From Thermomicrobiales bacterium (GTDB taxonomy: Bacteria; Chloroflexota; Chloroflexia; Thermomicrobiales; UBA6265), in NCBI GenBank assembly GCA_042408955.1, contig JBHOQQ010000164.1, positions 1,138 to 65,137 on the forward strand: 64,000 nt of DNA, written 5' to 3'. Below, piece after piece: positions 9,708 through 26,312 of the stretch. Made by a program: the position numbers and the translations under genes. The notes under the pieces are model-generated. The model saw nothing but the letters and a program-made list of their open reading frames with translations, had not been told where the DNA came from and ran no database searches. Numbering within the stretch: position 1 is the first letter of the stretch; the number at the start of each line of letters is the position of its first letter.

Positions 9708-9767
9708 GCAGGCGTGGCACCACGTGCGACCTCATCCCCTGTGAGCACCCCTAACGGAGCATCGTCT

Positions 9768-12041: not shown

Positions 12042-12283
12042 GTCACGGCTGAGGGTGATCCCGTTTCATACGTGGATTCTCGTGCGCCGAACATGGCCGC
12101 GGTGAGAACGCCATGCCCACTGAGGCCGGTTCCTCGGTGATGACAATCGTCCATCGCTGCCCGTTTATAGTAGTGGTACCTCCGAACGTGGGGACCTGAG
12201 CGATCGTTTGGTTGCCGTCTCGGCAACAGATGTAAGGCGTCGGAATCGCCATCCTCTGGCTGCCCCGCGTCGCCAGTCAAGAG

Positions 12284-12327
12284 TTAGTCTAGTCTATCTT
12301 GACAATTAGTCTAAGATAATATAATAT
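12284..12327 (+). promoter_or_regulatory. Sigma-70-like promoter (TTGACA-17 nt-TAATAT) flanked by TTAGTCTA direct repeats, upstream of the multicopper oxidase
   Basis: -35 TTGACA at 12299-12304, 17-nt spacer, -10 TAATAT at 12322-12327. TTAGTCTA occurs at 12284-12291 and 12306-12313 (22 nt apart, bracketing the -35), with an extra GTCTA at 12292-12296. The 50 nt at 12281-12330 hold only 13 G/C by my count, in a GC-rich window. Confidence 0.45.
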
Positions 12328-12361
12328 GTTTCTATTAGAAATTTCCAGCGAGGGGATGACG

Positions 12362-13492
12362 ATGAGGCCGCTCCAACCACGCGTAGACCGCCGTACCCTC
12401 CTCCGTTTCGGCGCTGGGAGTGGTGCCGCCGCCGGCGCTGCTGCCGCGCTGCCGCTCATCCTGCCAAAGGGAGGCGCCGCAACCGGCGGAATTCCCTCTG
12501 TGCCCTCCCACGCTCGTCACCAGGAGGACGACCCGCACGGCGGTCCGGGGCAGGGACATGGCCCGAGCATGACCGTCGGTGACGTCGATGTCACGCGGAT
12601 GCGCTACGACCCGTCCGTCTTTGTCACGACCTTCGACTACGGCGAAGTGACCACCTTGGCCGATGGCACGGTGGTCCGGGAATGGCAAATCGTCGCGATT
12701 GATAAAGAGATCGAGATCGCCCCGGGCGTCTTCTTCCCCGCTTGGACGTACAACGGCCAGGTGCCGGGACCGACACTCCGGTGCAACGAGGGTGACCGCC
12801 TCCGGATCCACTTCGTCAACAATGGCTCCATGCCGCATACCATCCACTTCCACGGCATCCATAGCGCGTACATGGATGGCGTTCCCGGCATCGGCCGCGG
12901 CGACATCCAGCCGGGCGAGTACTTCGTCTATGAGTTCGAAGCCAAGCCCTTCGGCTGCCACCTCTATCACTGTCACACCAATCCGCTTAAGCGCCACATC
13001 CACAAGGGGCTCTACGGGGCATTCATCATCAATCCGGACCCTCGCAAGCACGGCGACTTGGCCAGGACGCGCCATCCCGACTATTCCGAGTCTGCTGAAT
13101 GGCAAGAATTCGTCATGATCATGAATGCGTTCGATACGACGTTCGATTTTGAAAACGAGGTTTATGCAGTCAATTCCGTGGCGTTCCACTATGTGAAGCA
13201 CCCGATCCGTGTTGATAAGCGTCGTCCTATTCGCATCTACCTGATCAACATGACGGAGTTCGACCCGATCAATTCATTCCACCTTCATGCCAATTTCTTT
13301 GACTATTACGACACCGGGACGACCCTGGAGCCGACCTTGCGCCGCGTCGATACGATCATGCAGGCGCAAGGGCAGCGGGGCATCCTGGAATTCAGCTACC
13401 GCGACCACGAGCCCGGGCTGTACATGTTCCACGCTCACGTCTCGGAGTTTGCCGAGCTTGGCTGGATGAGCCTTTTCGACGTCAGGGGCTAG
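12362..13492 (+). CDS. Two-domain multicopper oxidase (Tat-exported), T1 site in the N-terminal domain
   Basis: Twin-arginine signal (RVDRRTLLRFGAGSGAAAGAAA). Copper motifs HTIHFHGIH, CHLYHCHTNPLKRHIHKGLYG, FHLHANF and MFHAHVSEFAELGWM. The track start 12326 sits inside the putative -10. ATG 12362 has GAGGGG 6 nt upstream; ATG 12356 is also possible. Confidence 0.85.
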   Translation: MRPLQPRVDRRTLLRFGAGSGAAAGAAAALPLILPKGGAATGGIPSVPSHARHQEDDPHGGPGQGHGPSMTVGDVDVTRMRYDPSVFVTTFDYGEVTTLADGTVVREWQIVAIDKEIEIAPGVFFPAWTYNGQVPGPTLRCNEGDRLRIHFVNNGSMPHTIHFHGIHSAYMDGVPGIGRGDIQPGEYFVYEFEAKPFGCHLYHCHTNPLKRHIHKGLYGAFIINPDPRKHGDLARTRHPDYSESAEWQEFVMIMNAFDTTFDFENEVYAVNSVAFHYVKHPIRVDKRRPIRIYLINMTEFDPINSFHLHANFFDYYDTGTTLEPTLRRVDTIMQAQGQRGILEFSYRDHEPGLYMFHAHVSEFAELGWMSLFDVRG

Positions 13493-13511
13493 GACAAGGA
13501 AGGTTTCTGCC

Positions 13512-14735
13512 ATGTCCGAAGGGACGGCCTCTTCAGCGACGATTGCCGCGCAATCCGCCCGGTGGAAGCTGGCGCGCTCCCCGGTCCTTCTGGCGCTTGG
13601 GCCACTCGCTCTCCTCCTTGGCGTGCTGGCGCTGATCGTCGCCACCGACGCTGGACTCGGCGATCGGGCCGCCCCACCGATCGAGGCGCTCAGCATCCAG
13701 CGGGTCCGTCTCCCCGCGCCCGGAGTCATTGAGCTGCGCGTCGTCAATGATGGCCCTGATCCGGTCACCATCGCCCAAGTGCTTGTTGATGAAGCGTATT
13801 GGCAATTCACCATGGATCCGCCAGGCAAGCTCGACCGCCTTGCGGCGGCGACGATCCGAATTCCCTACCCGTGGGTCGAGGGCGAGGCGCATGGCATTGC
13901 GCTCATCAGCTCGACGGGCGTTGTATTCGAGACGGAGGTGCCGGTCGCGCTGGAGAGTCCGCGTGCTGATCGGGAGAGTGTGCTGCGCTTTGGCCTGGTT
14001 GGGCTCTACGTCGGGATCGTGCCGGTCGCGCTCGGGTTGCTCTGGTATCCGCTGCTTCGCCGGCTCGGGCGGCATGGCATGCATTTCATCCTGGCGCTGA
14101 CCGCCGGTCTCCTTCTCTTCCTCGCGGTGGACATGTGGGAAGAGGCGCGGGAGGTGGCGCTGGTCGCTCCGGCCGCCCTTGACGCCGTCGTGTTGATCCC
14201 GCTGCTGGCGCTCCTTGCTGCTGGGTTTCTGGCCGTGATCGGGCGCTCGCTGCAGCGGCGAGGCGAAGAGGCGGGTGGGCTAGCGCTGGCCTACCAGATC
14301 GCGATCGGCATCGGGCTGCACAATCTCGGCGAGGGACTGGCGATCGGCAGCGCCTTCGCGATTGGCGAGGCCGCGCTTGGTGTCTTCTTGATCGCCGGCT
14401 TTACGCTCCACAACGTCACGGAAGGTGTCGGGATCGCCGCGCCATTGGTTCGACAGCGACCGCCGTTCTGGCATTTTGTCGCTCTCGTCGCGGTCGCTGG
14501 TGGCCCCGCCATCGCTGGTACCTGGATTGGGGCGTACACCTTCTCGGCCTTCTGGACGGCGGTCTTTCTCGCCGTGGGTCTCGGCGCGATTCTCCAGGTC
14601 ATCATCGAGGTCGGCCGCCTCATATGGCGCAGCCAGCGCCGGCACGCTGAGCCCGGGCTGACATGGGCGACCTTCGGAGGCGTCGCGGCCGGCGTTGCGG
14701 TCATGTATCTGACCGCGCTCCTGATCGCCGCATAG
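13512..14735 (+). CDS. ZIP-family divalent metal transporter with an N-terminal extracytoplasmic domain
   Basis: 407 aa. The C-terminal half has ZIP signatures GLHNLGEGLAIGSAF and TLHNVTEGVGIAAP. The N-terminal ~130 aa after a signal anchor look beta-rich (VIELRVVNDGPDPVTIAQVLVDEAYWQF). Confidence 0.8.
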   Translation: MSEGTASSATIAAQSARWKLARSPVLLALGPLALLLGVLALIVATDAGLGDRAAPPIEALSIQRVRLPAPGVIELRVVNDGPDPVTIAQVLVDEAYWQFTMDPPGKLDRLAAATIRIPYPWVEGEAHGIALISSTGVVFETEVPVALESPRADRESVLRFGLVGLYVGIVPVALGLLWYPLLRRLGRHGMHFILALTAGLLLFLAVDMWEEAREVALVAPAALDAVVLIPLLALLAAGFLAVIGRSLQRRGEEAGGLALAYQIAIGIGLHNLGEGLAIGSAFAIGEAALGVFLIAGFTLHNVTEGVGIAAPLVRQRPPFWHFVALVAVAGGPAIAGTWIGAYTFSAFWTAVFLAVGLGAILQVIIEVGRLIWRSQRRHAEPGLTWATFGGVAAGVAVMYLTALLIAA

Positions 14736-16674
14736 CTTCCTGTTGTGGCGGTGGTAAGGTGAGCTCCGCGACGACCGGCTTGTGATCCGACGTCCAGACA
14801 TCAGGGATGCGCGTCGCTCGCACCGTGATATCTGGCGTCACAAAGATGTAGTCAATGCGCTGACCTCGTTCGGACGTTGTTACTTCCGGCCCCAGGTCAG
14901 ATCCGGTATCCACTAGCCCGGCCGCGGTGATGCGAACAACGACGTCAGAATCCGGTGGCGCATTGAAATCCCCGCCGATGACCGCTGGGGCCTTGCCGTC
15001 CCAAAGCGCTAGGAGCTGCTCAACCTGTTCGAGCCGGACTGCTCCGGCCTCGTCTGGGTTGTCCAGATGCGTCGCAAACACCCAAATGGAGCCAGATTCC
15101 GTTTCAATTTGCGCTCCAACGGCGCTGCGGTGAAGGTTGACGGTCGAAGTGAACTGGCGGATCAGGGTCGAGGAGACTGGGGCGCGCGTGAGAATGGCAT
15201 TACCCCAAAGGCCATCGCGCGAAGCCGCGCCGAAGATCAGCGGCATGTCGAGCCGCTGGCTCAGCCAGCGCGCTTGGTCGATCCCGGTGAGGATGAACCA
15301 GCCCCGGCTCACTTCCTGCAAGATGACGATGTCAGGCTGTTGTGCCTCGATCGTCCGCGCGATGCGTTCGAGACTCCAGCGATTGTCGCGAGAGAAACCC
15401 GCCTGGATGTTGTAGGTGACAACGGTCATCTCGCGTGCGAGTGGAATGGAAATAGCGGGCTCCTCGTCTCGAAGCATGGATCTGAGGGCGACTACCACAG
15501 CGAGAATCAAGACGATAGCGGAGAGCGCCGCGAAGCGCCGGATATGCGGCGTCGTCGCGACTGGCCGAGGAGCGCCGGCTAGCAATGCTCCAGCGATCAA
15601 TCCACCGACCACTACCGTCATGAGGCGTGGTTGCCCGGTTTCGCTGTAGTAGAGGAACACCGTTGCGGCCTGCAGGGCAAGACCGGCTGTGACCCAGACG
15701 GCGGTCGTGATGAGACCCGGGCGCCCGGCAGGGCGGGCGGGACCGCGCAAGGCGTGGACAAACAGGGTGGCCGCACCGAAGGCGCCCAGCATGCCAGTAG
15801 CTTGAGCAAGGTCTGGCGAGCGCCAGATGAGCCACGCGCCGAGCGCTGTGAGCCCAATAACACAGGCCAGAAGCGTCCACCGGGATCGTGGCTGCCGCTC
15901 GTCGAACCGTCGCACACCGAGCAGCAAGCCTGTGCCAGCGGCAACACCGACAATCTGGGCCAAGGAGAGGCGCAACCCGACAATCCCAAGTGATTGATCA
16001 AAGCGTACCTCGGCGAGACCGAGGTTTCCCGTGACGAGGTGATACAGCGCCAAGCCCGGCCCGAGGGCAAGCAGTGAGCTATTGGCCTGCCAGCCTGCCT
16101 CACTGAATGGGCTCCGGGGCCGGTCGCGCAGGAGAGGAAGCGTGGCCAAGAGCATGCCTGCAATGAGGATCACGCTCAGCAGATGCTGCGAGGCAGTTGG
16201 CATCCAGGGCAAATCGACCGTGGTGTACGCGAGCCGGATGGTGAGGTCGAGCGCGAGCCCCAAGCCGATTCCAAATGCGGCCGGATCGCGCCAGCGGTTG
16301 AGCAGCGCAATGACCAGCCATCCCCAGACGACAACGGCTGCAGCGCCAAGATACATGCGCGCCACCGGGTCCTCCCAAAACTGGAGGATGGCGCGGCTGG
16401 TCGCCAGCACCATGACGGTGCCGGAAATCAGCCACCGAGGTAGGAGCCATCGCGCGGCAACGGCCATGAGGAGCGGAGAGCAATAGACGATGGCAGCATT
16501 GCGGGCGATCGTCAAGCGTTCGCTCTGATCGACGACGACGATCATGTAGGCGAGGAACACGCGGGTCGCCTCCAGCATCAGGGTGGTCGCGAGTGCCGCC
16601 ACCAGCACGGCTGGCAGCGTTAGATCCACGCTGAAGCGTCGCCACCACAGTCGCCACGACCATCTCGCACGCAT
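14701..16674 (-). CDS. Polytopic membrane protein with a C-terminal endonuclease/exonuclease/phosphatase (EEP) domain
   Basis: The C-terminal ~250 aa are EEP: MTVVTYNIQAGF...PDIVILQEV...WGNAILTR...GGDFNAP...SDHKPVVAEL. About 12-13 hydrophobic spans precede it. The track ORF runs to 17103, but its first 143 codons are Arg/Ser-rich and overlap the divergent gene. ATG 16674 (MRARWSWRLWWRR...) is the likely start. Confidence 0.75.
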   Translation of the reverse strand: MRARWSWRLWWRRFSVDLTLPAVLVAALATTLMLEATRVFLAYMIVVVDQSERLTIARNAAIVYCSPLLMAVAARWLLPRWLISGTVMVLATSRAILQFWEDPVARMYLGAAAVVVWGWLVIALLNRWRDPAAFGIGLGLALDLTIRLAYTTVDLPWMPTASQHLLSVILIAGMLLATLPLLRDRPRSPFSEAGWQANSSLLALGPGLALYHLVTGNLGLAEVRFDQSLGIVGLRLSLAQIVGVAAGTGLLLGVRRFDERQPRSRWTLLACVIGLTALGAWLIWRSPDLAQATGMLGAFGAATLFVHALRGPARPAGRPGLITTAVWVTAGLALQAATVFLYYSETGQPRLMTVVVGGLIAGALLAGAPRPVATTPHIRRFAALSAIVLILAVVVALRSMLRDEEPAISIPLAREMTVVTYNIQAGFSRDNRWSLERIARTIEAQQPDIVILQEVSRGWFILTGIDQARWLSQRLDMPLIFGAASRDGLWGNAILTRAPVSSTLIRQFTSTVNLHRSAVGAQIETESGSIWVFATHLDNPDEAGAVRLEQVEQLLALWDGKAPAVIGGDFNAPPDSDVVVRITAAGLVDTGSDLGPEVTTSERGQRIDYIFVTPDITVRATRIPDVWTSDHKPVVAELTLPPPQQEAMRRSGARSDT

Positions 16675-16891
16675 CCGGCTGACTCCGTTCGTGTCGCACC
16701 CAGGGGGAGGCGCTGCCCACCCATGGCAACGAGCATCCCATATCTCGCGAAGACGGACAATCCGCGAAGGCTTGGGCGTGCGGTGATGGAGAACGTTGTG
16801 ACACGGTGTGCTCGCTCTGTCGTTGTCTGCTATACTCGTGAGCACCCGCACGGACGTTCGACTTGTACGGACACCAAGGAGCGGGCCAGCA

Positions 16892-17977
16892 GTGACGTTT
16901 GCAGCCAGCGTCGCGCGGCTCCACGCCGAATTGAAGCGCCAGGGAATCGACCTCCAGGATATGCGCGCCGAGCGCCATCTGGAGGTTACGCTGGTCGCGA
17001 ATCCGGACCTCGATCTTGAGGTGGATGGAGCCACCTCGCCGCGATCGGAATTTCGGTGGTTGGAGCCGGAAGGCGACTTCTTCCGGAGCGTGCCCGCTGG
17101 CATCCCGTCGGGATTTCGCTACTTCCTCGACGGGACGCAACGAACGCTGCCCGCTTTTTTCTCAGCATTCGTGCCGATTATCGCTACCATCAACGCGGCC
17201 GCCATTCTTGTCCGGAATGACGAGGGGGATTGCGCGATCATGCCGGGAATGCTCCGGCTGCGCCACCACTGGCTCGCGCCGCGCCGCTCTGGCGATCCAG
17301 CGGTGGACCGCTTTATCGCCACTGTCGAGCGCCAGCCGTATGCGGCAGGAGGCAGCGCGGAGCCGCCGATGGTTTCCTGCGTGATCGACCCGATCCACCA
17401 TCTTGACGATCCAGCTTACAAGGCGGTATTAGAAGATTTCAGCCGCCTGATCTATTTAGCGTATGACAAGGCGCGCAAGCTCCGGCAGGAGCTTGAAGAG
17501 GACCTGCTACGCGATTGGTGGAATGCCACGGCCGGCACGCCCGATTGGATTTTGGTAGATGGCGCCTTGCGCATCGCCCAGCCGCGCATGGTGGGCCTCG
17601 TTAAATCGTTCACCCGCCACTATTTGACCGGCGAGGCGGCATCCGCGCTGCTTCGCCTGCCGCGTGGACACCGCTCGCCGGCGTTCGAAGTCTTTGATCG
17701 CTGGTGGCGCGGCACACCGGTCACGGCATGGTATCTCCGCTTGCGCGACGCCACCGGCCGCGATCCGCGATATGGCCTCGTCCGCGTTGAGACATCGCCG
17801 GAGGTGCGCGACACTGCCCAGATCGATGAGTTGTCGTCCTGGATCCTCGCGGAGCGTATCCCGAGCGCAACAGCGGACGCTCGTTGGGCGACGCTCCTCT
17901 ATCCGGTGCATTTCTTGGAGCAGATTCTCAAGCGGTACTTGGAAGCGGAAACGCGCGGTTGGCCGTCTCCCCGCTAG
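16892..17977 (+). CDS. nurA: NurA-like nuclease
   Basis: Matches archaeal NurA motif by motif, by eye: RYFLDGTQRT (cf. AIDGGS), WILVDGALR (cf. ILMDGSL), VGLVKSFTR, TAWYLRLRDATGRDPRYGLVRVE (cf. FYTRL..VIRVD), LLYPVHFLEQILK (cf. YPFPLLKAH). GTG 16892 follows AAGGAG (16876-16881). The track start is 16808. Confidence 0.65.
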   Translation: MTFAASVARLHAELKRQGIDLQDMRAERHLEVTLVANPDLDLEVDGATSPRSEFRWLEPEGDFFRSVPAGIPSGFRYFLDGTQRTLPAFFSAFVPIIATINAAAILVRNDEGDCAIMPGMLRLRHHWLAPRRSGDPAVDRFIATVERQPYAAGGSAEPPMVSCVIDPIHHLDDPAYKAVLEDFSRLIYLAYDKARKLRQELEEDLLRDWWNATAGTPDWILVDGALRIAQPRMVGLVKSFTRHYLTGEAASALLRLPRGHRSPAFEVFDRWWRGTPVTAWYLRLRDATGRDPRYGLVRVETSPEVRDTAQIDELSSWILAERIPSATADARWATLLYPVHFLEQILKRYLEAETRGWPSPR

Positions 17978-18010
17978 CAGGCTGGCCCGACGTTGCACGA
18001 GGGAAAGGCG

Positions 18011-20260
18011 ATGGATCTCGAAGCGCGCGATGCACTCGGGGTAAATGGGCACGAAACCGGTGTCCGGCATGAGCCGGATGCAAAAGGTCGAGCGGCGCTC
18101 GCGTGGCTCAACGCAGAGCTTCGCCAAGCCTTCGCCGCGCTCGTTGACACCGCGACTGGGGCAATCGGGCGGGTTGTCGGGAGCGAGCGGGAGCCAGCCG
18201 GATCGCACCGGTTCTGTATCTGGGCGGCGGATCACGCCCGGACACTCGATGTCGGCCATATTGTCGTTGCCTTTTCGGAAGAGGCCGCGGTCATCGGCGT
18301 GGTGGACGAGCCTCGCCGGTATTCGGACTTGCGAAGCTTCCTTGATGATTATTTCGATCGCCATCTCGAAGCGGCACTGGCGGAGTCGCTGGAGCACGAG
18401 CCGCCGACCAGACGTCCGGAGATCCTCGTCTTTACGGTCAACGTGCTGGCGACGAAGCACCTGCGGGAGGATGTGACATCGCACCGGCCGCCAGTCGCCG
18501 GCCCAGTCTACTTCGCTACACCTCAGGCCATCGAATACGCACTCGGCTGCCAGAACTTCAGCGGCACTCCGATTCCAGCCTTGCTGCACACGAACGGCAA
18601 TGCTGAGCGCCTGCCAAATGGTTCGGAACGGCGCGATGCACAAGGGCGGGTGGTGTTTCAGCGCTCGCCGATTTTGCTGGACGAGGACTACTTGCTGGGG
18701 CCGGAGGCAGGGCATGCAAACTGGACCGGCCAATCAGGCCTGGCGACGAAGACAAGCCACGCCCTGTTCCTCATCAGCGCGATCTTTCAGCGGCTCAAGG
18801 GTGAGGGGACGACGGTCGCAGCTTTGATGTTCAACGTCAAGGGGCCGGACCTGCTCTGGCTCGACAAGCCAGCGGTTCCCGAGGAGGGGATGGCGGATGC
18901 CTACGCGGCCGCGGGCTTCGCCGGCCTGAGCCCTGCCCAGCTTGAAGCTTACGCTGCCCTCGGGTTGCGGCCGGAGCCATTCCGTAACCTGCGCATCTTC
19001 GCGCCGTTCAAGCCGGGATTCGTTCCGCCCGACCCGGTCGTGCATCTCCCGACTGTTGATCGGGCGTGCCTCAATACGTTGCGCAACGCCCCGGCCGAGG
19101 CGCAGTGCGTCTATCCCATCCTCTGGAATCTGAGCCCATTTCTCTGGCGGCCTCACAAGATCTTCGAGCGCGAGGATCTCGATGATAAGCTCTTTGGCTT
19201 GATCGCTGAGATTCGCGATCTGCGCGGCATCGAGACCCTTGCCCAGTTGAACGAGCTTTTTGAGGAGATCGAGGCGTCATTCAGGGAGGCCGAGGAAGCT
19301 GGGGACCGAGAGGGGGCAACGAGCTGGCGCGGTCATCATAAGTTCACCGTGCGCAAGGCGCGCAACCGGTTCAAGAATCTCACCAGCAAATTTGCCGGGC
19401 TCCTGGCCGAGGGCGCGGTTGATTACGGTCAACTGCCCCGAGTGGATGGGCCATTTGAGGATCAGGAGGTGCGGATCGTCGATATTGCCCATTGCAATAC
19501 CAACGTCCAAGAATTGCTCGTCGATGTCATTATTGATCGGATCTGGAAGCTTGCTGAGCAAGGTGAGCGCGCGGCAAAAGACAATCCCGACCGCAAAGAT
19601 AAGGTGCTCGGCGTGGACAAGGTGATCGTCTTCGTTGATGAACTGAACAAATATGCCCCTGGCGGAGCGCAAGGTGGATTGCGCGACACCCTCGTCGATA
19701 TCGCCGCACGCGGGCGCCACCTGAATGTGGTGCTCTTCGGCGCGCAGCAGTTTCGCTCCAAGGTCGAGAGCGAGATTCTCGGCAACTGCGGCACATCGTT
19801 TTACGGGCGGATTGGGGACGAGGAGATCATCAGCCCGTCGTACCGCTCGCTGAGCGACACGCAGAAGGCTGAGCTCCTCGGTTTGCCGAAGGGGCGGTTA
19901 CTAGTTCGGCATGCGCATTTCCGCACTCCTTTGTTCGGCACGTTCCCCCGCCCACCGGTCATTCCTGGCATGGCCGGGCAAAGCGTGTTCAACGACGGCA
20001 GCGCAGCCGGACGGGCAGATACGCACCCTGGTGATGCGCTCTACCATCTGCTCAAGCGGTTCGGTGTGGAGGAGCGCAATCTGAAGGGGCTCGTGCGTAC
20101 CGAAACCGATGGGCTGACCGCAGCGGCGATCGAGCGCATTTGCCGGCAGGTTGAGGTGACCGTCAACAAGCACCGGGGCTCCACTGCCGCCAGCCGGTTC
20201 GATCCCTGGACGGTGGCAAGGCGGGCGATCGCGGACGCGCGGCGGCAAGGCTGGCGCTAG
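18011..20260 (+). CDS. herA: HerA-like (HerA/FtsK-superfamily) ATPase with HAS-barrel-like N-terminus and a C-terminal extension
   Basis: N-terminal barrel-like IGRVVGSE..VGHIVVAF..VIGVVDE. P-loop region NWTGQSGLATKTS (18728-18757). Walker B KVIVFVDELNKY (19622-19642). RGRHLNVVLFGAQQFRS..LGNCGTSFYGRIGD. ATG 18011 follows GAGGGA; the track start is TTG 17993. Confidence 0.7.
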   Translation: MDLEARDALGVNGHETGVRHEPDAKGRAALAWLNAELRQAFAALVDTATGAIGRVVGSEREPAGSHRFCIWAADHARTLDVGHIVVAFSEEAAVIGVVDEPRRYSDLRSFLDDYFDRHLEAALAESLEHEPPTRRPEILVFTVNVLATKHLREDVTSHRPPVAGPVYFATPQAIEYALGCQNFSGTPIPALLHTNGNAERLPNGSERRDAQGRVVFQRSPILLDEDYLLGPEAGHANWTGQSGLATKTSHALFLISAIFQRLKGEGTTVAALMFNVKGPDLLWLDKPAVPEEGMADAYAAAGFAGLSPAQLEAYAALGLRPEPFRNLRIFAPFKPGFVPPDPVVHLPTVDRACLNTLRNAPAEAQCVYPILWNLSPFLWRPHKIFEREDLDDKLFGLIAEIRDLRGIETLAQLNELFEEIEASFREAEEAGDREGATSWRGHHKFTVRKARNRFKNLTSKFAGLLAEGAVDYGQLPRVDGPFEDQEVRIVDIAHCNTNVQELLVDVIIDRIWKLAEQGERAAKDNPDRKDKVLGVDKVIVFVDELNKYAPGGAQGGLRDTLVDIAARGRHLNVVLFGAQQFRSKVESEILGNCGTSFYGRIGDEEIISPSYRSLSDTQKAELLGLPKGRLLVRHAHFRTPLFGTFPRPPVIPGMAGQSVFNDGSAAGRADTHPGDALYHLLKRFGVEERNLKGLVRTETDGLTAAAIERICRQVEVTVNKHRGSTAASRFDPWTVARRAIADARRQGWR

Positions 20261-20380
20261 CGCCGCGCAAGATTCCGGTCTCGCCGCCTATCTTTGCTCG
20301 CCGCGCCTGTGGTACGCTTGCCATAACTGATCTTCCCGCGGTGTCCGCGGCGCCAGCTCCAGCGACGTGAGGAGGCGCCG

Positions 20381-21988
20381 GTGAGCATTTCGATCAAGAC
20401 CTGCCCTACCTGCGGACAGGCAAACCCAGCAACCAACGGATTCTGCCCCAACTGTGGCGAGGTGATCACCGGTGTGACGCCGGTTGTCCGGCCTGGCCAA
20501 GCCGCCCATGGGTTTTTCGCTATCCCTGCCTATCTGCGGATGCCTCCCCGCCGCCGGCGGCCTGTCGACAATGTTGGGGGCGGTGGCTTCATCTGGCTGG
20601 GTTTTTTGCTCATTAGCATTCCCATTCTTCTGTCGCATGCGTCGCCACTCGCGTTTGGGCTCTGGATTTTCGGGATTCTGCTGGTTATCACCGGCTTCTG
20701 GCGCTTGCGGATCGATCCTCATGCCTTTGGCCGGGCCGGATTGACCACCAACGCCATCGGGTTGCTCGCGCTGGCGGGAGTTGTCGCGCAAGTGGCACGG
20801 ACGGCGGGTGAGCCCGCTGGGCGAGCCATGGTGGCCCCGGTTTCACCCCCAACGGTAACGGCAACGCCGGATTGGATGGTCACGGCAGGGAGCAGCCCTA
20901 CCCCAGTCGCTAAGCGCTGGGGAGCGGTGCCGATGTTTCGTGGTGAGCCATCTCACTCGGGACTGCACCCTGGACCAGGGCCAGCGGGCAATCCGTATCG
21001 CAAGTGGCGCTATGACACGGGCGGCGAGGTGCGGTCCTCCCCTGCTGTTGCCGACGGCACGGTGTTCGTTGGCAGCCATGGAGGTCTGTTATACGCCTTC
21101 GATGCGGCGTCTGGTCAGTTGCGGTGGTATTTCGATCTTGGTGGCTACCCCGTGCGCTCCTCACCTGCTGTCGTTGATGGACAAGTGTTCATCGGCGGTG
21201 GCTACGCGCTGTACGCGCTCGACGCAGCAACCGGCCAAGTGCGCTGGCGATTTGCCATGCGCTATGCTGGCGAATCCTCCCCAACCGTTGCCGATGGCGT
21301 GGTCTACACCGCGAGCAAGGAGTCGCTGGTCTACGCTGTCGATGCGGCGACCGGCGCGGAAAAATGGCATTTCCAAACGGAAGGGCTCATCTTCTCCTCG
21401 CCGGCTGTCGCTCAGGGGCTCGTGCTGATTGGCAGCGACGACGGCAATCTCTATGCGATTGATGCCAAGTCCGGACAGAGCCGCTGGCGATTTGCCGTCG
21501 GTGGTGAGGTGTATTCCTCTCCGGCGGTTGCTGGCGACCGGGTCTTCGTGGTTGGCAAGAATCACTCCACCTTTGCAGTCGATCTGCGAACCGGCAAGCC
21601 GGTCTGGCATTATCCGGTCGGTGGAGATTCATCTCCAGCGATCGCTGGTGGCATCCTCTACGTTGGTGCCGAGGATGGTGGTGTCTACGCGCTTGACGCG
21701 GCCACAGGCACATTGCGGTGGCTCTATCCGACGGGGCGCCCAATCCGCGGCTCACCAGTGGTGGCTGACGGGGTGCTGTACGTGCCAAGCGGCCTGACGC
21801 TCTTCGCCCTCGATGCTATCAATGGTCAAGAACGGTGGAAATATCCCGTCGGTGACACCATCGGCGGTTCGCCAGCGGTTGTCGATGGCGTCGTCTACGT
21901 GGGCGATGCGAGCGGCTATCTCTATGCACTCGCCGGTGACGGCGATGTGACCGGCGCCTCGTTGCGTGGGCCTGAAGACTCGCGCTGA
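20381..21988 (+). CDS. Zinc-ribbon / transmembrane / PQQ-like beta-propeller repeat protein
   Basis: CPTCGQANPATNGFCPNCG (20402-20455), then 3 hydrophobic spans. About eight repeats of SSPAV.DG.V(F/Y)(V/I)G...G.LYA(L/F/I)DA.(T/S)G...W follow. GTG start after GAGGAGG. Confidence 0.8.
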   Translation: MSISIKTCPTCGQANPATNGFCPNCGEVITGVTPVVRPGQAAHGFFAIPAYLRMPPRRRRPVDNVGGGGFIWLGFLLISIPILLSHASPLAFGLWIFGILLVITGFWRLRIDPHAFGRAGLTTNAIGLLALAGVVAQVARTAGEPAGRAMVAPVSPPTVTATPDWMVTAGSSPTPVAKRWGAVPMFRGEPSHSGLHPGPGPAGNPYRKWRYDTGGEVRSSPAVADGTVFVGSHGGLLYAFDAASGQLRWYFDLGGYPVRSSPAVVDGQVFIGGGYALYALDAATGQVRWRFAMRYAGESSPTVADGVVYTASKESLVYAVDAATGAEKWHFQTEGLIFSSPAVAQGLVLIGSDDGNLYAIDAKSGQSRWRFAVGGEVYSSPAVAGDRVFVVGKNHSTFAVDLRTGKPVWHYPVGGDSSPAIAGGILYVGAEDGGVYALDAATGTLRWLYPTGRPIRGSPVVADGVLYVPSGLTLFALDAINGQERWKYPVGDTIGGSPAVVDGVVYVGDASGYLYALAGDGDVTGASLRGPEDSR

Positions 21989-22151: not shown

Positions 22152-23540
22152 TCAATAATGAATCACGACTGGCGTGCCAATCGGCGTCCACCAAAAGAGC
22201 CATTCGGCGAAGCTGACCGGCAGATTGACGCAGCCGTGGCTCATCACGTGTCCGAAGTTGTTATGCCAGTAGGCCCCGTGAATCGCGTGCCCCCAATTCG
22301 TGAAATACATCACCCATGGCACATTCGGCACGTAGTAACACTCACCTTGGATGCAACCGGACATCGTCTGGCTCACGAGCTTCGTGTTGATGTACCAGGT
22401 GCCGGTTGGCGTATCGAACCCAGGCCGGCCTGTGCTCACATACGAGCCGGCGATCCAGGTATTTCCTTGCCAGACGTTCATGTATTGCGTGCTGAGATTA
22501 ACCTCGATCCACTTACCGCCGCCGAACGGCTCGGGTGGCGCCGCTGGGCAGCGCTTCGTGATCGTGCCGGCGGATGTGACAACCCTGACCCCCTCGTCAT
22601 CATAGGCGGAGTTCGTCAGGATGTAATCGTGAGTCAGCACATACGAGCCTGTTGCGCCAGCCCCAGCCTGCCACAGGCGCGTACCCCCGGCTTTCAGTGT
22701 CGCGTTGACGGGGAATGGCTCGGCGGAAGTTGGCGCATACAGCGTGCCGATCGAGATGACGACGACAGGCCCTTGGCCGTTGTTTGTGACACGGATCCGC
22801 TCCGGCTCAGAGGTGCAATTGATCGTAACCTTGATGTCGCTCAGCGAGACGGGCGGAGGCGGAGGTGGCGCCGCTGGGCAGCGCGTTTCGAGCGTGCCCA
22901 CCGACGTCACGACGCGAACACCCTCCGCGTCATATGCCGAGTTGGTAAGCATGAGCTTGGGGCTCAACACGAAGCTGCCGGTTGCGGCTGAGCCTGCTTG
23001 CCAGAGGCGCGTTCCTCCGGCGGGCAGCCGGTAATCCACCTGGAAGAACTCGGTCGGGGCGTATAAGGTCTCGATGGACTGCACGATGACCGCCACGGCC
23101 CCGTTATTGGTCACCCGGATGCGCTCCGGGTTCGAAGTACAGTTGATCGTCAATGCCAACTGGTCGATGGTCACGGCCGGGGTGGCTGTTGCCGCCGGCG
23201 TGTCCGTTGGAGTTGCGGCTGGCGTCTCCGTCGGTGTCTCGGTTGGCGATTCGGTCGGGGTTTCGACCGTCGCGGAAGGCGACGCTTCGGTTGAGGGCGT
23301 AGCGTCCGCAGCATTGGTTGAAGATGGGGAAGCCTCGGCGCCCACCGGAGTTGCGTCATCGGCGGCGCTCACCTCGGCGGCGGGTGAGCCGCTCTCCGTG
23401 GGCGTGGCGTCTTGATCGTCCGGCGCAAGCCATGCTTGGTCGGGATCCTGCGCGAAGGCAGGTGGAACCACCCGCACGCTTCCGAGAAGCGGTGCTAGCA
23501 CCAGCACCGCGACCACCGCCCAGACGATATGGCGCCGCAT
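22152..23540 (-). CDS. L,D-transpeptidase (YkuD domain) with signal peptide, Thr/Pro/Glu-rich linker and two tandem copies of an unknown ~108-aa domain
   Basis: C-terminal YkuD: KWIEVNLSTQYMNVWQGNTWIAGSYVSTGRPGFDTPTG...HGAYWHNNFGHVMSHGCVNLP. Start ATG 23540 (MRRHIVWAVVAVLVLAPLLG); the track start is 23636. Confidence 0.85.
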   Translation of the reverse strand: MRRHIVWAVVAVLVLAPLLGSVRVVPPAFAQDPDQAWLAPDDQDATPTESGSPAAEVSAADDATPVGAEASPSSTNAADATPSTEASPSATVETPTESPTETPTETPAATPTDTPAATATPAVTIDQLALTINCTSNPERIRVTNNGAVAVIVQSIETLYAPTEFFQVDYRLPAGGTRLWQAGSAATGSFVLSPKLMLTNSAYDAEGVRVVTSVGTLETRCPAAPPPPPPVSLSDIKVTINCTSEPERIRVTNNGQGPVVVISIGTLYAPTSAEPFPVNATLKAGGTRLWQAGAGATGSYVLTHDYILTNSAYDDEGVRVVTSAGTITKRCPAAPPEPFGGGKWIEVNLSTQYMNVWQGNTWIAGSYVSTGRPGFDTPTGTWYINTKLVSQTMSGCIQGECYYVPNVPWVMYFTNWGHAIHGAYWHNNFGHVMSHGCVNLPVSFAEWLFWWTPIGTPVVIHY

Positions 23541-23915
23541 CGCCCTTGCCCCTATCACACTCACGCCCAGCCCGTTCCCGCAGCGTGATGTCCCGATCAC
23601 GCCGCTCCTTGAGAGCATTCTACACGCCCCATCCACTGCAACGCGCGGCGTGACCAGGGCGTTTCGTCATGATCCTAGCAGATGCGAAGCGATGACGTCG
23701 GCATTCAAGCGCCAGTGGATCAACGCGCTGTGGATCGCTCAGCTTGTTCTCCATCAAGGCAGGACGGCGACCGTGCCGCCGGTCCTCGGCGGCGAAACGA
23801 AGGCGGCGATCGCCAAGCGGTGCCAGGCTGCGCTGTGGATCGCCGCCAGGATGCTCACGGGCAGCGCATCTGCCCTCTTCTCACGGATGCGCCGGTCAAC
23901 GACGTCGGAACGCGC

Positions 23916-24968
23916 CTAGGATGCTTGGAAAAGCCCAACAGCGCCGTGACTTGCGTGGCCGAAGGCGTGATTTACGAAGGGGTAGGTGCCTGGCTCGTCC
24001 AGGGTAAACTCCACAACGGCGCCGTCACCAGGGCCGATCGTTACCGACTGCAGACCGACGAGCTTGTTGGCCCGGTTGCCATTGACATAGACCGCATCAA
24101 ACACTGTGCCGACCACATGGAAGCTTGACCAGACGTTGGGACCGGCATTGACGACAAAGACGCGGATCGGCGCCTTGACCTCCACCGCGATTGGGTTCTC
24201 GACGTACTGGTTCGCGTAGCCATTGAAAACGCAGTAGTCCATGGTGCCGTTGCCGACCATCTTCGTGTAATCAGGCACCATCACCCCGTTGCCGGCGTCC
24301 TTCACGTAGTACTCACTCTGAACGAAGGCGAATTCCTGAGCTGGAGACCAGCCTTCCTTGGGATCAACGATCATCGCGCCATACATGCCAGCGCCGATAT
24401 GCATGAGGATGGGCGGCGTGCCGCAATGGTACATGAAGGTTCCAGGATACTTGGCCTCAAAGGTGAAGCTTAGTTCCTCACCTGGCATGATGGTGCGGTA
24501 ATTCTTGTCCGGCGCGGTCTTGGCTGAATGGAAGTCGAGCGAGTGAGCCGTGGTGGCAGAAGGATCGACTTTAAAGGTGAAGTTGATCGTGTCCCCTTCG
24601 ACCACACGGAGCATGCGGCCAGGAATGGTGCCGTCAAACGTCCACGCGGAGTAAGCGACATCCTTGGCGATATAGCGAACGACGTCCTTCGCAACGACGG
24701 TAATCTCTTTTGACCCTGCTTGAACGGGTGGCAAGACCGGATCATAGAGGGTAAAAGGCTCCACGGCCTGTGCAGATGGAGCAGCCATTGCCATATCATG
24801 CCCGTCGTCAGCAGCCGCTTGCTGTGTGATCCCCACGACGCCGAGGGCAGGCAACGCGAGCCCCACCCCCGCGATATGCCGGAAGAGCGACCGCCGGTCG
24901 GCCCGCAGTCCCGGCACACCAGCCAGCAATTGATCAATCGTGTCTCCGGTTACCACCCGTGTCTTCAT
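23916..24968 (-). CDS. nirK: Copper-containing nitrite reductase (NirK), Tat signal
   Basis: AHSLDFHSA and YHCGTPPILMHIGAGMYGAMIVDP (H-C-x8-H-x4-M type-1 Cu plus type-2 His), and later SSFHVVGTVFD. Tat motif LRADRRSLFRHIAG. ATG 24968 has GGAGGG 6 nt upstream; the track start is 25103. Confidence 0.85.
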   Translation of the reverse strand: MKTRVVTGDTIDQLLAGVPGLRADRRSLFRHIAGVGLALPALGVVGITQQAAADDGHDMAMAAPSAQAVEPFTLYDPVLPPVQAGSKEITVVAKDVVRYIAKDVAYSAWTFDGTIPGRMLRVVEGDTINFTFKVDPSATTAHSLDFHSAKTAPDKNYRTIMPGEELSFTFEAKYPGTFMYHCGTPPILMHIGAGMYGAMIVDPKEGWSPAQEFAFVQSEYYVKDAGNGVMVPDYTKMVGNGTMDYCVFNGYANQYVENPIAVEVKAPIRVFVVNAGPNVWSSFHVVGTVFDAVYVNGNRANKLVGLQSVTIGPGDGAVVEFTLDEPGTYPFVNHAFGHASHGAVGLFQAS

Positions 24969-25199
24969 TGAGCCCTCCATAAACCTGCACAAAACCACGC
25001 CACATCGGAGCGGCGCTCTTCCTATCGTTGAAGCCATGGTGCCAGGGCAGGCGTTGCAGTCGCATTGCTGAGTGGCAAGATCGGAATTGCAAAAACGTGA
25101 CAAAGTCGCCCGCGAGATGCATGACCGTTCGATGTGCTCAGTGGATTCGGCTCGTGGACAGGGCTGCCGCGCTGGCTACGCTGCCGGCGTCATTGCCGC

Positions 25200-26312
25200 C
25201 TATTTGATGGCCACGACCGGTGGAGGCGCGTAGGCGCAGGCAGGGTCAGCTTCAAGGAAATCGCCGGTGTGCACGTATGCGCGCGAACGAGAGCCGCCGC
25301 AAAGGCGCTTGTAGGGGCAGCGTCCACATTTGCCTTTGAGCTGGTCAGGGGCTCGGAGCGCCAGGAAGACCGGGTGGTTCCGGTAGAGATCGACCACCGA
25401 GGCGGTGCGAACGTTGCCAGTCACGATTGGCAGGAAGCCGCTTGGGCACACATCTCCGGTGTGAGACACAAAGCAGAAGCCGTTGCCAGCGTTCACTGCC
25501 TTTGGTGCACGGCCGATGCCATCACCAGCCGCGTAGCCCAGCCCGCGTGTCGCCGTGCTGTCATGTTGGAGTGCAACGCGCCGGTAGTGGTAGCCCTCCG
25601 TCAATTTGAGCTCCCAGCGAGCGGTCTTTTGCCGCTCTGCGAGCCAGTGAAAGACGGCTTCGTACTCGTCCGGGCTCAGCTCATCGGCAATGCGCCCCCG
25701 GCCTGTGGGGACCAGGCAGAAGACAGCCCAAACGACAGCACCAAGCTCTTCAACGAGACTGGCGATCGCCGGAAGGTCATCACGTGTCTGACGCGCGAGC
25801 GTCGTGTGGATTTGCACCGGCAGGTCGAGCTTCCATGCCGTGCGGAGAATTGCCTGAGTCCAAGCGAAGGACCCTGCCACGCGCCGGAAGCCGTCGTGAC
25901 GCTCTGGCGTCGAGCCATCAAGACTGACCGCGATGCGCTGGACACCGGCGTCGCGGGCGGCAGCGAGACGGGCTGGGCTGGCCAGCGGTGTACCGGCTGG
26001 CGTGAGGGTGCAGCGTATGCCGCGATCCGTGGCGTAGCGGATCAGATTGATCAGGTCCGGCCGGCGCATTGGGTCGCCGCCGGTCAGGATGAGCACTGGT
26101 GGAGTGTCAAACGATGCGATGTCATCAATCAGGCGCATCGCTTCGTTTGTAGAGAGCTCGGCAGGATCGCGCCTGAGCTGGGCTTCGGCCCGGCAGTGAA
26201 CGCACGCAAGATTGCAGGCGCGGGTCAGCTCCCAGGCCAATACAAAGGGTTGCCGCGAGAAATTAAAGCTTGTCAACGCCGGACGAGTTGGTGCGCCGGC
26301 CTTGCTCACCAT
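25200..26312 (-). CDS. Radical SAM / SPASM-domain protein, AhbD/NirJ-like
   Basis: FVLAWELTRACNLACVHCRAEA (CxxxCxxC), LILTGGDPMRRPDL, VFCLVPTGRG, and the C-terminal Cys cluster GNGFCFVSHTGDVCPSGFLP...KCGRCPYKRLCGGSRSRAY. SD GGAGGA lies before the ATG. Confidence 0.85.
   Translation of the reverse strand: MVSKAGAPTRPALTSFNFSRQPFVLAWELTRACNLACVHCRAEAQLRRDPAELSTNEAMRLIDDIASFDTPPVLILTGGDPMRRPDLINLIRYATDRGIRCTLTPAGTPLASPARLAAARDAGVQRIAVSLDGSTPERHDGFRRVAGSFAWTQAILRTAWKLDLPVQIHTTLARQTRDDLPAIASLVEELGAVVWAVFCLVPTGRGRIADELSPDEYEAVFHWLAERQKTARWELKLTEGYHYRRVALQHDSTATRGLGYAAGDGIGRAPKAVNAGNGFCFVSHTGDVCPSGFLPIVTGNVRTASVVDLYRNHPVFLALRAPDQLKGKCGRCPYKRLCGGSRSRAYVHTGDFLEADPACAYAPPPVVAIK

What the first reader, a model, noticed from the sequence alone, without database searches (positions are those of the whole stretch)
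16892..20260. Bacterial NurA-like nuclease plus HerA-like translocase gene pair: nuclease-plus-HerA module of unknown role (repair or defence)
Seen: two co-directional genes 33 nt apart (15 nt if the TTG start is used).
- Gene 1 matches archaeal NurA motif for motif: RYFLDGTQRT with the Asp codon at 17129-17131, WILVDGALR, VGLVKSFTR, YLRLRD...GLVRVE, LLYPVHFLEQILK.
- Gene 2 has a HAS-barrel-like N-terminus, Walker B KVIVFVDELNKY, the HerA/FtsK-type RGRHLNVVLFGAQQFRS...NCGTSFYGRIGD block, a ~280-aa insert between the Walker motifs, and a ~100-aa C-terminal tail with no counterpart I recognise.

Established: NurA-HerA is the archaeal DNA end-resection machine. nurA-herA operons also occur in some bacteria (Deinococcus-Thermus) with unsettled function. 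HerA paired with other effectors (SIR2-HerA, DUF4297-HerA) forms anti-phage systems.

Inference: in this lineage the pair could be a nuclease-effector/HerA defence-type module rather than housekeeping repair. It is diverged, it lacks Mre11/Rad50 neighbours, and it sits divergent to a membrane EEP nuclease/phosphatase.
Basis: partly seen in the sequence, partly recalled or inferred. Interest (0 to 1): 0.62.

Follow-up and report, generated by a model that had tools for sequence, protein, structure and literature searches.

The report
Bacterial NurA-HerA DNA-end resection gene pair
These two genes are a genuine bacterial NurA nuclease and HerA DNA-pumping ATPase of the type solved in Deinococcus; in almost all related genomes the same pair sits in one operon with the break-repair genes mre11 and rad50, so it looks like chromosomal DNA repair and not anti-phage defence.

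Summary
Gene 1 (16892-17977, 361 aa) is a bacterial-type NurA. A family profile hits D. radiodurans NurA (E=1.8e-9). A confident AlphaFold model (pLDDT 93.5) has only D. radiodurans NurA and T. maritima TM1739 as significant PDB matches. The NurA active-site set D80/E202/D223/K238/Y337 is kept in 143-145 of 145 relatives.

Gene 2 (18011-20260, 749 aa) is a D. radiodurans-type HerA (E=5.6e-34; profile 4.7e-41) with the ATPase residues intact.

The defence inference is not supported.
- The window comes from a Thermomicrobiales (Chloroflexota) genome.
- At least 186 species-level genomes carry this HerA, and nurA lies directly upstream in 72 of 72 testable loci.
- In 66 of 69 loci, mre11 follows herA on the same strand, and rad50 follows in 61.
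- argH flanks about 43 of 80 loci.
- HerA diverges about as slowly as ArgH.
- There are no close copies on plasmids or phages and no defence neighbours.

The window's own clade has lost the mre11-rad50 linkage. That is a local rearrangement.

Verdict: a new member of a known kind, of low to moderate interest. The by-product is an order-wide nurA-herA-mre11-rad50 operon in bacteria, with one reported precedent in Oceanithermus.

The parts
16892..17977 (+). nurA: bacterial-type NurA nuclease, 361 aa, GTG start. RNase H-like fold with active-site residues D80, E202, D223, K238 and Y337.
   Evidence: An NCBI protein of 361 aa is 100% identical over 100% of the query. Pfam NurA scores 19.3 bits, below the cut-off of 21. 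The family profile hits D. radiodurans NurA 7f6d_H (E=1.8e-9) and TM1739 (E=1.9e-5). The AlphaFold2 model has pLDDT 93.5. Foldseek finds only D. radiodurans NurA and TM1739 at E<=0.001. Residue conservation is 143-145 of 145.
16876..16881 (+). Shine-Dalgarno-like AAGGAG, 10 nt upstream of the nurA GTG start
   Evidence: Read directly from the sequence.
17129..17131 (+). Codon GAC for NurA D80, the first catalytic Asp, equivalent to S. solfataricus NurA D58
   Evidence: the S. solfataricus residues are taken from PMC3326311.
17978..18010 (+). 33-nt nurA-herA spacer holding the GAGGGAAAGG ribosome-binding site of herA. The pair is read as one operon.
   Evidence: nurA lies directly upstream of herA in 72 of 72 related loci.
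18011..20260 (+). herA: D. radiodurans-type HerA ATPase/translocase, 749 aa. Walker A K247/T248, acidic residue D280, Walker B D543/E544, and the RGRHLN...GAQQFRS block.
   Evidence: phmmer against D. radiodurans HerA 7f6d_B gives E=5.6e-34; the profile gives E=4.7e-41. These columns are invariant in 26 homologues. There is no Pfam or NCBIfam hit.
19964..20257 (+). HerA C-terminal tail, about residues 652-749. A variable Gly/Ser/Ala-rich linker is followed by a conserved domain of about 78 aa, probably helical (motif HPGDGL..LL.R...VRT..DGL....IC..V...PW). D. radiodurans HerA lacks it; its function is unknown.
   Evidence: There is no credible Pfam or PDB match; the TALE and TEL-TNK1 hits are repeat or fusion artefacts.
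14701..16701 (-). Divergent neighbour, not part of the system: a multi-pass membrane protein with a C-terminal endonuclease/exonuclease/phosphatase (EEP) domain. The likely start is ATG near 16701; the ORF extension to 17103 is probably spurious.
   Evidence: Pfam Exo_endo_phos, E=1.9e-22. The same divergent arrangement occurs in L001, L003, L007, L016 and L081 only.

Best explanation
The locus is a two-gene operon for the bacterial (Deinococcus-type) NurA-HerA complex in a Thermomicrobiales chromosome.

Proposed mechanism, inferred from the D. radiodurans and archaeal complexes:
- A HerA hexamer uses ATP to thread a broken duplex DNA end through its central pore. The ATPase residues are Walker A K247/T248, Walker B D543/E544 and acidic D280.
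- The DNA is fed into a NurA dimer docked on the N-terminal face of HerA.
- The strands are split there, and the 5' strand is cut by the metal-dependent RNase H-like site (D80, E202, D223, with K238 and Y337).
- This leaves a 3' single strand for RecA-mediated homologous recombination.

The physiological role is most likely chromosomal double-strand-break or DNA-end processing together with Mre11-Rad50. In nearly all related genomes the four genes form one operon. In the window's clade the pair has become physically separated from mre11-rad50.

Shown here: family membership, an intact active site and ATPase motifs, operon structure, order-wide conservation and the Mre11-Rad50 linkage.
Inferred: complex formation, the polarity of resection and the in vivo role.
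For: Identity:
- HerA against D. radiodurans HerA gives E=5.6e-34 and E=4.7e-41 with a profile.
- The NurA profile against D. radiodurans NurA gives E=1.8e-9 and against TM1739 gives E=1.9e-5.
- The AlphaFold2 model has pLDDT 93.5 and pTM 0.91. Its only Foldseek hits at E<=0.001 are D. radiodurans NurA (1.6e-12) and TM1739.
- NurA residues D80, E202, D223, K238 and Y337 are kept in 143-145 of 145 diverse relatives. They parallel S. solfataricus NurA D58, E116, D133, K202 and Y298 (PMC3326311).
- HerA K247/T248, D280 and D543/E544 align with D. radiodurans HerA K175/T176, D220 and D487/E488 (PMC9960219).

Role:
- 186 species-genome relatives were found, and the best 80 are all Thermomicrobiales or Chloroflexia.
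- nurA lies upstream of herA in 72 of 72 loci.
- mre11 is directly downstream in 66 of 69 loci and rad50 in 61.
- These downstream genes carry Metallophos and SMC_N/AAA_23/SbcC Walker B/Rad50 zinc-hook domains. Their best matches are archaeal Mre11 and Rad50.
- argH flanks 43 loci.
- Mean pairwise identity is 62% for HerA and 66% for ArgH, with Pearson r=0.59. HerA against Mre11, Rad50 and NurA gives r=0.73-0.85.
- GC content is unremarkable.
Against: - In D. radiodurans and T. thermophilus, deleting nurA/herA does not sensitise cells to DNA damage and can increase resistance. In vitro resection by the D. radiodurans complex is weak. The authors call the bacterial role uncertain (PMC9960219).
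- This window and its closest relatives (L001, L081) lack adjacent mre11-rad50. I could not check whether the genome encodes them elsewhere.
- The window NurA scores just under Pfam's gathering cut-off (19.3 against 21 bits).
- The HAS-barrel and the NurA-HerA interface were not tested.
- Gene linkage is guilt by association, not proof of function.
Confidence: 0.72

Rival explanations
1. Dedicated anti-phage or anti-plasmid defence module. HerA acts as sensor and motor and NurA as the DNA-degrading effector, analogous to SIR2-HerA and DUF4297-HerA.
For: - HerA-effector pairs are proven defence systems (PMC11291478, PMC11472057, PMC11514289; found).
- The PADLOC mad8 model hits HerA residues 419-642 at E=1.7e-8.
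- In this clade the pair is unlinked from mre11-rad50.
Against: - The PADLOC HerA model reaches only E=0.083, and NurA has no PADLOC hit.
- The mad8 match covers only the generic C-terminal half of the ATPase.
- Defence HerA structures (8xau, 8wiv) score E of about 0.7-0.9 with the single sequence and are absent at E<=0.01 with the profile.
- Nine neighbours give no real defence hit.
- The pair is conserved order-wide in a recurrent argH / mre11-rad50 context.
- HerA evolves as slowly as ArgH.
- No close relatives occur on 72,556 plasmids or 50,697 phages.
Confidence: 0.06
2. RecBCD-like dual function. The complex is primarily a repair resection machine, but its wholesale dsDNA-degradation mode also destroys incoming linear foreign DNA, so it gives incidental protection.
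For: - Blackwood et al. proposed this explicitly for archaeal HerA-NurA and observed two processing modes (PMC3326311).
- D. radiodurans NurA-HerA digests either strand depending on its translocation state (PMC9960219).
Against: Nothing in the sequence or its context speaks to it. No Chi-like regulator or self/non-self element was found. It is not distinguishable from the best explanation with these tools.
Confidence: 0.12
3. A DNA-translocation role other than break resection: replication-fork or cell-proliferation support, or DNA export/transfer, as reported for HerA-family ATPases in Thermus (HepA, TdtA).
For: - The D. radiodurans mutants show defective proliferation and reduced intermolecular recombination, not radiosensitivity.
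- The Thermus hepA mutant is defective in growth at high temperature and in transjugation (PMC5448004; PMC5365140, listed).
Against: - Strict pairing with an intact nuclease and operon linkage to Mre11-Rad50 in 66 of 69 relatives point to end processing.
- No conjugation or competence genes lie nearby.
Confidence: 0.1

Closest known systems
Deinococcus radiodurans NurA-HerA (DR_0836/DR_0837 from my own knowledge; PDB 7F6D, 7WRW, 7WRX; PMC9960219)
   Same: - It is the best and essentially only structural and sequence relative of both proteins.
- The gene order is the same, nurA then herA.
- The Walker A variant G-x-S-G-x-A-T-K-T-S, the Walker B DELNKYAP and the GAQQ block are shared.
- The distance between the Walker motifs is similarly long.
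- The NurA topology is the bacterial type.
   Different: - The window HerA is 131 aa longer: about 72 extra residues before Walker A (K247 against K175) and a C-terminal tail of about 95 aa that D. radiodurans HerA lacks.
- NurA is only about 20% identical.
- NurA has about 70 residues before the first catalytic strand, so the short N-terminal beta-strand and pin (residues 10-15 in D. radiodurans NurA) may not correspond.
- In relatives of the window the pair is fused to mre11-rad50, which from my own knowledge is not the case in Deinococcus.
Archaeal HerA-NurA-Mre11-Rad50 end-resection operon (Sulfolobus, Pyrococcus, Thermococcus)
   Same: - The same four protein families are involved.
- The NurA active-site set D/E/D/K/Y is the same.
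- In 66 of 69 Thermomicrobiales loci the four genes are contiguous and co-directional.
- The linked Mre11 and Rad50 score better against archaeal models and structures than against E. coli SbcCD.
   Different: - Sequence similarity to archaeal NurA and HerA is too low to detect by phmmer or Foldseek at E<=0.001.
- The gene order differs: nurA-herA-mre11-rad50 here, against herA-mre11-rad50-nurA in Sulfolobus (my own knowledge).
- The window itself has no mre11-rad50.
Thermus/Oceanithermus nurA-hepA (PMC5448004)
   Same: - It is a bacterial nurA-herA tandem set among unrelated metabolic genes, as in the window.
- Oceanithermus profundus has sbcD-sbcC downstream of herA, the same four-gene layout as most Thermomicrobiales.
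   Different: - It belongs to a different phylum.
- NurA is shorter (293 aa).
- The HerA C-terminal tail was not examined there.
SIR2-HerA and DUF4297-HerA anti-phage systems
   Same: Both are two-gene modules with a HerA-family hexameric ATPase plus an effector enzyme.
   Different: - The effector here is NurA, not SIR2 or DUF4297.
- The HerA is not detectably closer to defence HerAs.
- The distribution is order-wide and syntenic, with no defence-island context.

Membership tests
NurA nuclease family | RNase H-like NurA fold | tested here: met
   The AlphaFold2 model has pLDDT 93.5 and pTM 0.91. Its only Foldseek PDB hits at E<=0.001 are D. radiodurans NurA 7f6d_G (1.6e-12, TM 0.52/0.55, 348 columns) and TM1739 1zup (2.3e-9).
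NurA nuclease family | Catalytic Asp-Glu-Asp triad plus conserved Lys and Tyr (S. solfataricus NurA D58, E116, D133, K202, Y298; PMC3326311) | tested here: met
   Conservation among 145 diverse relatives: D80 143/145, E202 145/145, D223 145/145, K238 145/145, Y337 145/145. The correspondence rests on order and motif context. No residue-level structural superposition was available.
NurA nuclease family | Sequence match to the curated Pfam model PF09376 at the gathering score | tested here: not met
   The window protein scores 19.3-19.5 bits against a cut-off of 21. Five of 24 family members match at E<=0.01. The shortfall is marginal and is outweighed by the profile hit to D. radiodurans NurA (E=1.8e-9).
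NurA nuclease family | Encoded next to, and functioning with, a HerA ATPase | tested here: met
   The spacer in the window is 33 nt. nurA lies directly upstream of herA in 72 of 72 loci that have upstream DNA. Pairwise identities co-vary (r=0.78).
NurA nuclease family | Toroidal dimer and Mn2+-dependent 5'-3' exo/endonuclease activity | not testable with these tools
   This needs purified protein or a multimer prediction.
HerA (FtsK-HerA superfamily) translocase, D. radiodurans type | ASCE P-loop ATPase core with Walker A Lys/Thr, Walker B Asp-Glu and an acidic residue after beta2 | tested here: met
   K247/T248, D543/E544 and D280 align with D. radiodurans HerA K175/T176, D487/E488 and D220 (residues from PMC9960219). 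All are invariant in 26 homologues.
HerA (FtsK-HerA superfamily) translocase, D. radiodurans type | Significant full-protein similarity to an experimentally characterised HerA | tested here: met
   7f6d_B HerA gives E=5.6e-34 and E=4.7e-41 with the profile. The alignment covers D. radiodurans residues 139-274 and 439-593.
HerA (FtsK-HerA superfamily) translocase, D. radiodurans type | N-terminal HAS-barrel domain | tested here: inconclusive
   The N-terminal 215 residues do not align with D. radiodurans HerA by HMMER. One of 26 members hits Pfam HAS-barrel at E=0.22.
HerA (FtsK-HerA superfamily) translocase, D. radiodurans type | Match to the curated Pfam/NCBIfam HerA-type models | tested here: not met
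   The window protein and all 26 aligned homologues have no Pfam hit at meaningful E-values, and there is no NCBIfam hit. These libraries do not cover the subfamily.
HerA (FtsK-HerA superfamily) translocase, D. radiodurans type | Hexameric ring that translocates dsDNA | not testable with these tools
   This needs biochemistry or cryo-EM.
HerA-based anti-phage systems (SIR2-HerA, DUF4297-HerA) | Partner effector is SIR2 or DUF4297 | tested here: not met
   The partner is NurA. NurA has no PADLOC hit.
HerA-based anti-phage systems (SIR2-HerA, DUF4297-HerA) | HerA matches the defence HerA models or structures | tested here: not met
   The PADLOC HerA model gives E=0.083. Structures 8xau and 8wiv give E=0.72 and 0.92 and are absent at E<=0.01 with the profile.
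HerA-based anti-phage systems (SIR2-HerA, DUF4297-HerA) | Patchy distribution, variable defence-island context or carriage on mobile elements | tested here: not met
   There are 186 species-genome hits in one order with recurrent argH and mre11-rad50 context. The neighbours are not defence genes. Plasmids and phages hold only relatives of 23-34% identity. No denominator of Thermomicrobiales genomes that lack the pair was available.
Four-gene HerA-NurA-Mre11-Rad50 resection operon | mre11 and rad50 adjacent to the pair | tested here: not met
   Neither is found in the 64-kb window, nor next to the pair in L001 and L081. It is met in relatives: 66 of 69 loci for mre11 and 61 for rad50.

The most novel reading that the evidence does not exclude
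In Thermomicrobiales, a bacterial four-gene NurA-HerA-Mre11-Rad50 machine, with Mre11 and Rad50 that look more archaeal than SbcCD-like, would be the main double-strand-break resection pathway. The order-specific C-terminal domain of about 78 aa on HerA would be the adaptor that couples the motor to Mre11-Rad50 or another partner. The window's clade, which has uncoupled the pair from mre11-rad50, would be a natural experiment on whether NurA-HerA can work alone. This would give the disputed bacterial NurA-HerA a clear physiological role.
Probability: 0.25. Interest if true: 0.5.

Novelty: new member of a known kind. Interest (0 to 1): 0.3.

Why it matters
For annotation, both proteins are deposited as 'hypothetical' or 'ATP-binding protein'. 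The HerA subfamily is invisible to Pfam and NCBIfam, so naming it correctly is useful.

For biology, the role of bacterial NurA-HerA is openly described as uncertain, and the pair is said to occur in 'a few bacteria such as Deinococcus-Thermus' (PMC9960219). Here it is found in at least 186 Chloroflexota species. It is almost always co-operonic with Mre11-Rad50. That gives comparative support for an end-processing role and offers a second phylum in which to test it.

The finding itself is not a new system, and it is not a defence system.

Tried and rejected
- Single-sequence AlphaFold2 of NurA failed (pLDDT 35) and cost one of the two jobs. The alignment-based rerun worked.
- phmmer of the single NurA sequence against the PDB found nothing. 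A family profile was needed.
- The promoter and terminator scan of 16500-20500 was uninformative: 0 promoters, and terminators at the chance rate.
- The C-terminal tail profile against the PDB returned TALE repeats, de novo TIM barrels and TEL-TNK1 fusions. These have no stretch, or only chimeric stretches, that pass on their own. I rejected them as artefacts. Pfam on the tail gave only scattered hits at E>0.001.
- The PADLOC mad8 hit was considered as defence evidence. I rejected it because it covers only the shared C-terminal ATPase half, and the MADS preprint gave no further information.
- The pVip hits of the neighbouring radical-SAM gene were treated as generic radical-SAM similarity.
- A greedy ORF caller picked antisense shadow ORFs in this high-GC DNA (c7 and c12). 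The counts were therefore redone with tblastn.
- Cheng et al. 2015 (PMC4438212) is not held.
- The third homologous-protein search was deliberately not spent.

Full report
**What is there.** Two co-directional ORFs occupy 16892-17977 and 18011-20260 on the + strand.
- Gene 1 starts at a GTG preceded by AAGGAG. An NCBI protein of 361 aa is 100% identical over 100% of this reading.
- Gene 2 most plausibly starts at ATG 18011, behind GAGGGAAAGG. Homologues begin at the same alignment column.
- Names attached to the homologues place the window in a Thermomicrobiales (Chloroflexota) genome.
- GC content across the pair (0.62-0.64) matches the rest of the window.

**Gene 1 is a bacterial-type NurA.**
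- The single sequence falls just below Pfam's NurA cut-off (19.3 against 21 bits) and finds nothing in the PDB.
- A 24-member family profile hits D. radiodurans NurA (7f6d_H, E=1.8e-9) and T. maritima TM1739 (1zup, E=1.9e-5).
- An AlphaFold2 model built on 145 diverse relatives is confident (pLDDT 93.5, pTM 0.91). Its only Foldseek PDB matches at E<=0.001 are those same two bacterial NurA structures (1.6e-12 and about 2e-9, covering about 330-350 columns).
- Across the 145 relatives, D80, E202, D223, K238 and Y337 are kept in 143-145 sequences.
- This is the same Asp/Glu/Asp plus Lys and Tyr set described for S. solfataricus NurA: D58, E116, D133, K202 and Y298 (PMC3326311).
- The nuclease therefore looks active.

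**Gene 2 is a D. radiodurans-type HerA.**
- phmmer gives E=5.6e-34 to D. radiodurans HerA (7f6d_B). A 26-member profile gives E=4.7e-41.
- K247/T248, D280 and D543/E544 align with D. radiodurans HerA K175/T176, D220 and D487/E488, the ATPase residues defined in PMC9960219. All are invariant.
- The long stretch between the Walker motifs is a family feature, the helix-bundle domain and TR motif. It is not an oddity.
- Pfam and NCBIfam do not recognise this subfamily at all, which explains the 'hypothetical protein' labels.
- Defence-type HerAs (8xau, 8wiv) score E of about 0.7-0.9 and vanish with the profile.
- The PADLOC HerA model gives E=0.083. The mad8 hit (E=1.7e-8) covers only the generic C-terminal half of the ATPase.
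- Two regions remain uncharacterised. The N-terminal ~215 residues (the HAS-barrel was not verified) are one. The other is a C-terminal tail of about 95 aa that D. radiodurans HerA lacks. The tail is a variable Gly/Ser-rich linker followed by a conserved, probably helical domain of about 78 aa, with no credible Pfam or PDB match.

**Distribution and context.**
- A scan of one genome per species found 186 relatives. The best 80 are all Thermomicrobiales or Chloroflexia metagenome-assembled genomes.
- nurA lies directly upstream of herA in all 72 loci that have upstream DNA.
- Clustering the flanking ORFs revealed two genes immediately downstream of herA that the window lacks.
  - One is a metallophosphoesterase of about 400 aa.
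  - The other is an SMC_N/AAA_23/SbcC-Walker-B protein of about 940 aa with a CxxC Rad50 zinc hook.
  - Their best matches are archaeal Mre11 and Rad50 models and structures, ahead of E. coli SbcCD.
- By tblastn, mre11 follows herA on the same strand in 66 of 69 loci with at least 700 bp of downstream DNA. rad50 follows in 61, and most of the rest are cut by contig ends.
- argH is nearby in 43 loci.
- HerA is as conserved as ArgH (mean pairwise identity 62% against 66%) and co-varies with it (r=0.59). It co-varies more strongly with NurA, Mre11 and Rad50 (r=0.73-0.85).
- This pattern fits vertical, chromosomal inheritance of a four-gene unit.

**The window's clade is the exception.**
- The window, L001 (81% HerA identity) and L081 (85%, GCA_900174565.1) share a context without mre11-rad50: EEP gene (minus strand), nurA, herA. 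In the window and L081 a PQQ propeller, YkuD, a multicopper oxidase and a radical-SAM gene follow.
- No Mre11 or Rad50 is encoded in the 64-kb window.
- Whether the genome keeps mre11-rad50 elsewhere could not be tested.

**Defence reading.**
- Nine neighbours show no real PADLOC hit.
- Among 72,556 plasmids and 50,697 phages there are only relatives of 23-34% identity.
- A RecBCD-like side effect on foreign linear DNA, as speculated for archaeal HerA-NurA (PMC3326311), cannot be excluded.

**Comparison with the literature.**
- The closest known system is D. radiodurans NurA-HerA.
- Its authors describe the bacterial role as uncertain. Deletions do not sensitise cells and can improve survival, and the pair is described as present in only a few bacteria (PMC9960219).
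- A four-gene layout with sbcD-sbcC downstream of herA has been noted once, in Oceanithermus profundus (PMC5448004).
- The Thermomicrobiales data extend both points, but they do not define a new kind of system.

**Verdict.** The identification is right, and the defence inference is not supported. This is a new member of a known kind. Its interest is modest, and lies mostly in the order-wide nurA-herA-mre11-rad50 operon and the uncharacterised HerA tail.

Noticed in passing
Related loci, e.g. L003:5403-9535, L042:12043-13266, L072:2891-5722: In 66 of 69 related Thermomicrobiales loci, herA is followed on the same strand by mre11 and, in 61, by rad50. This gives a bacterial nurA-herA-mre11-rad50 operon. 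The Mre11 and Rad50 score better against archaeal models than against SbcCD. The window lacks these genes.
   Followed up: yes
window 14701-16701 (-): A multi-pass membrane protein with a C-terminal EEP domain lies divergent to nurA. The same divergent pairing recurs in L001, L003, L007, L016 and L081 but not in most loci. Its substrate is unknown, and it also hits the PGAP2IP-type EEP model. The ORF's 5' extension to 17103 overlaps nurA and is probably spurious.
   Followed up: partly
window 9714-14735 and 23916-25103: A copper/metal gene set surrounds the pair: a CopC-CopD fusion (775 aa), two two-domain multicopper oxidases (388 and 395 aa; the second also hits the plastocyanin-like Copper-bind model), and a weak ZIP-family membrane protein. 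In L081 a cation-efflux gene replaces CopCD. In L081 and L001 this block lies between argH and nurA, and most other loci lack it, so it looks like an insertion.
   Followed up: partly
window 25200-26312 (-): A radical-SAM protein lies next to the second multicopper oxidase. It gives PADLOC pVip hits (E about 4e-12) that look like generic radical-SAM similarity and not a viperin.
   Followed up: no
window 20381-21988 (+): The gene directly after herA encodes an N-terminal zinc ribbon, a hydrophobic stretch and a PQQ/BamB-like beta-propeller. It occupies the position that mre11 holds in other genomes.
   Followed up: no
window 22152-23636 (-): An L,D-transpeptidase (YkuD) protein has a Pro/Thr/Ala-rich linker and two internally repeated modules of about 110 aa ('...INCTS.PERIRVTNNG...') ahead of the catalytic domain.
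   Followed up: no
window 17507-18733 (-) and other long antisense ORFs: Long shadow ORFs lie antisense to nurA and herA (for example 408 aa). They are typical of high-GC DNA. They misled a greedy ORF picker in the related loci and are not genes.
   Followed up: yes
HerA homologue P0179, and P0166/P0190/P0198 (alignment A2, columns ~720-760): The linker before the HerA C-terminal domain varies greatly in length. Some species carry Gly/Ser-rich insertions of up to about 30 residues, which suggests a flexible tether.
   Followed up: no
L051 (OZ244596.1, 'chromosome: 2' of a Thermomicrobiales MAG): This is a second independent case where nurA-herA lacks downstream mre11-rad50. Here the pair sits on the second replicon of a complete assembly.
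   Followed up: no
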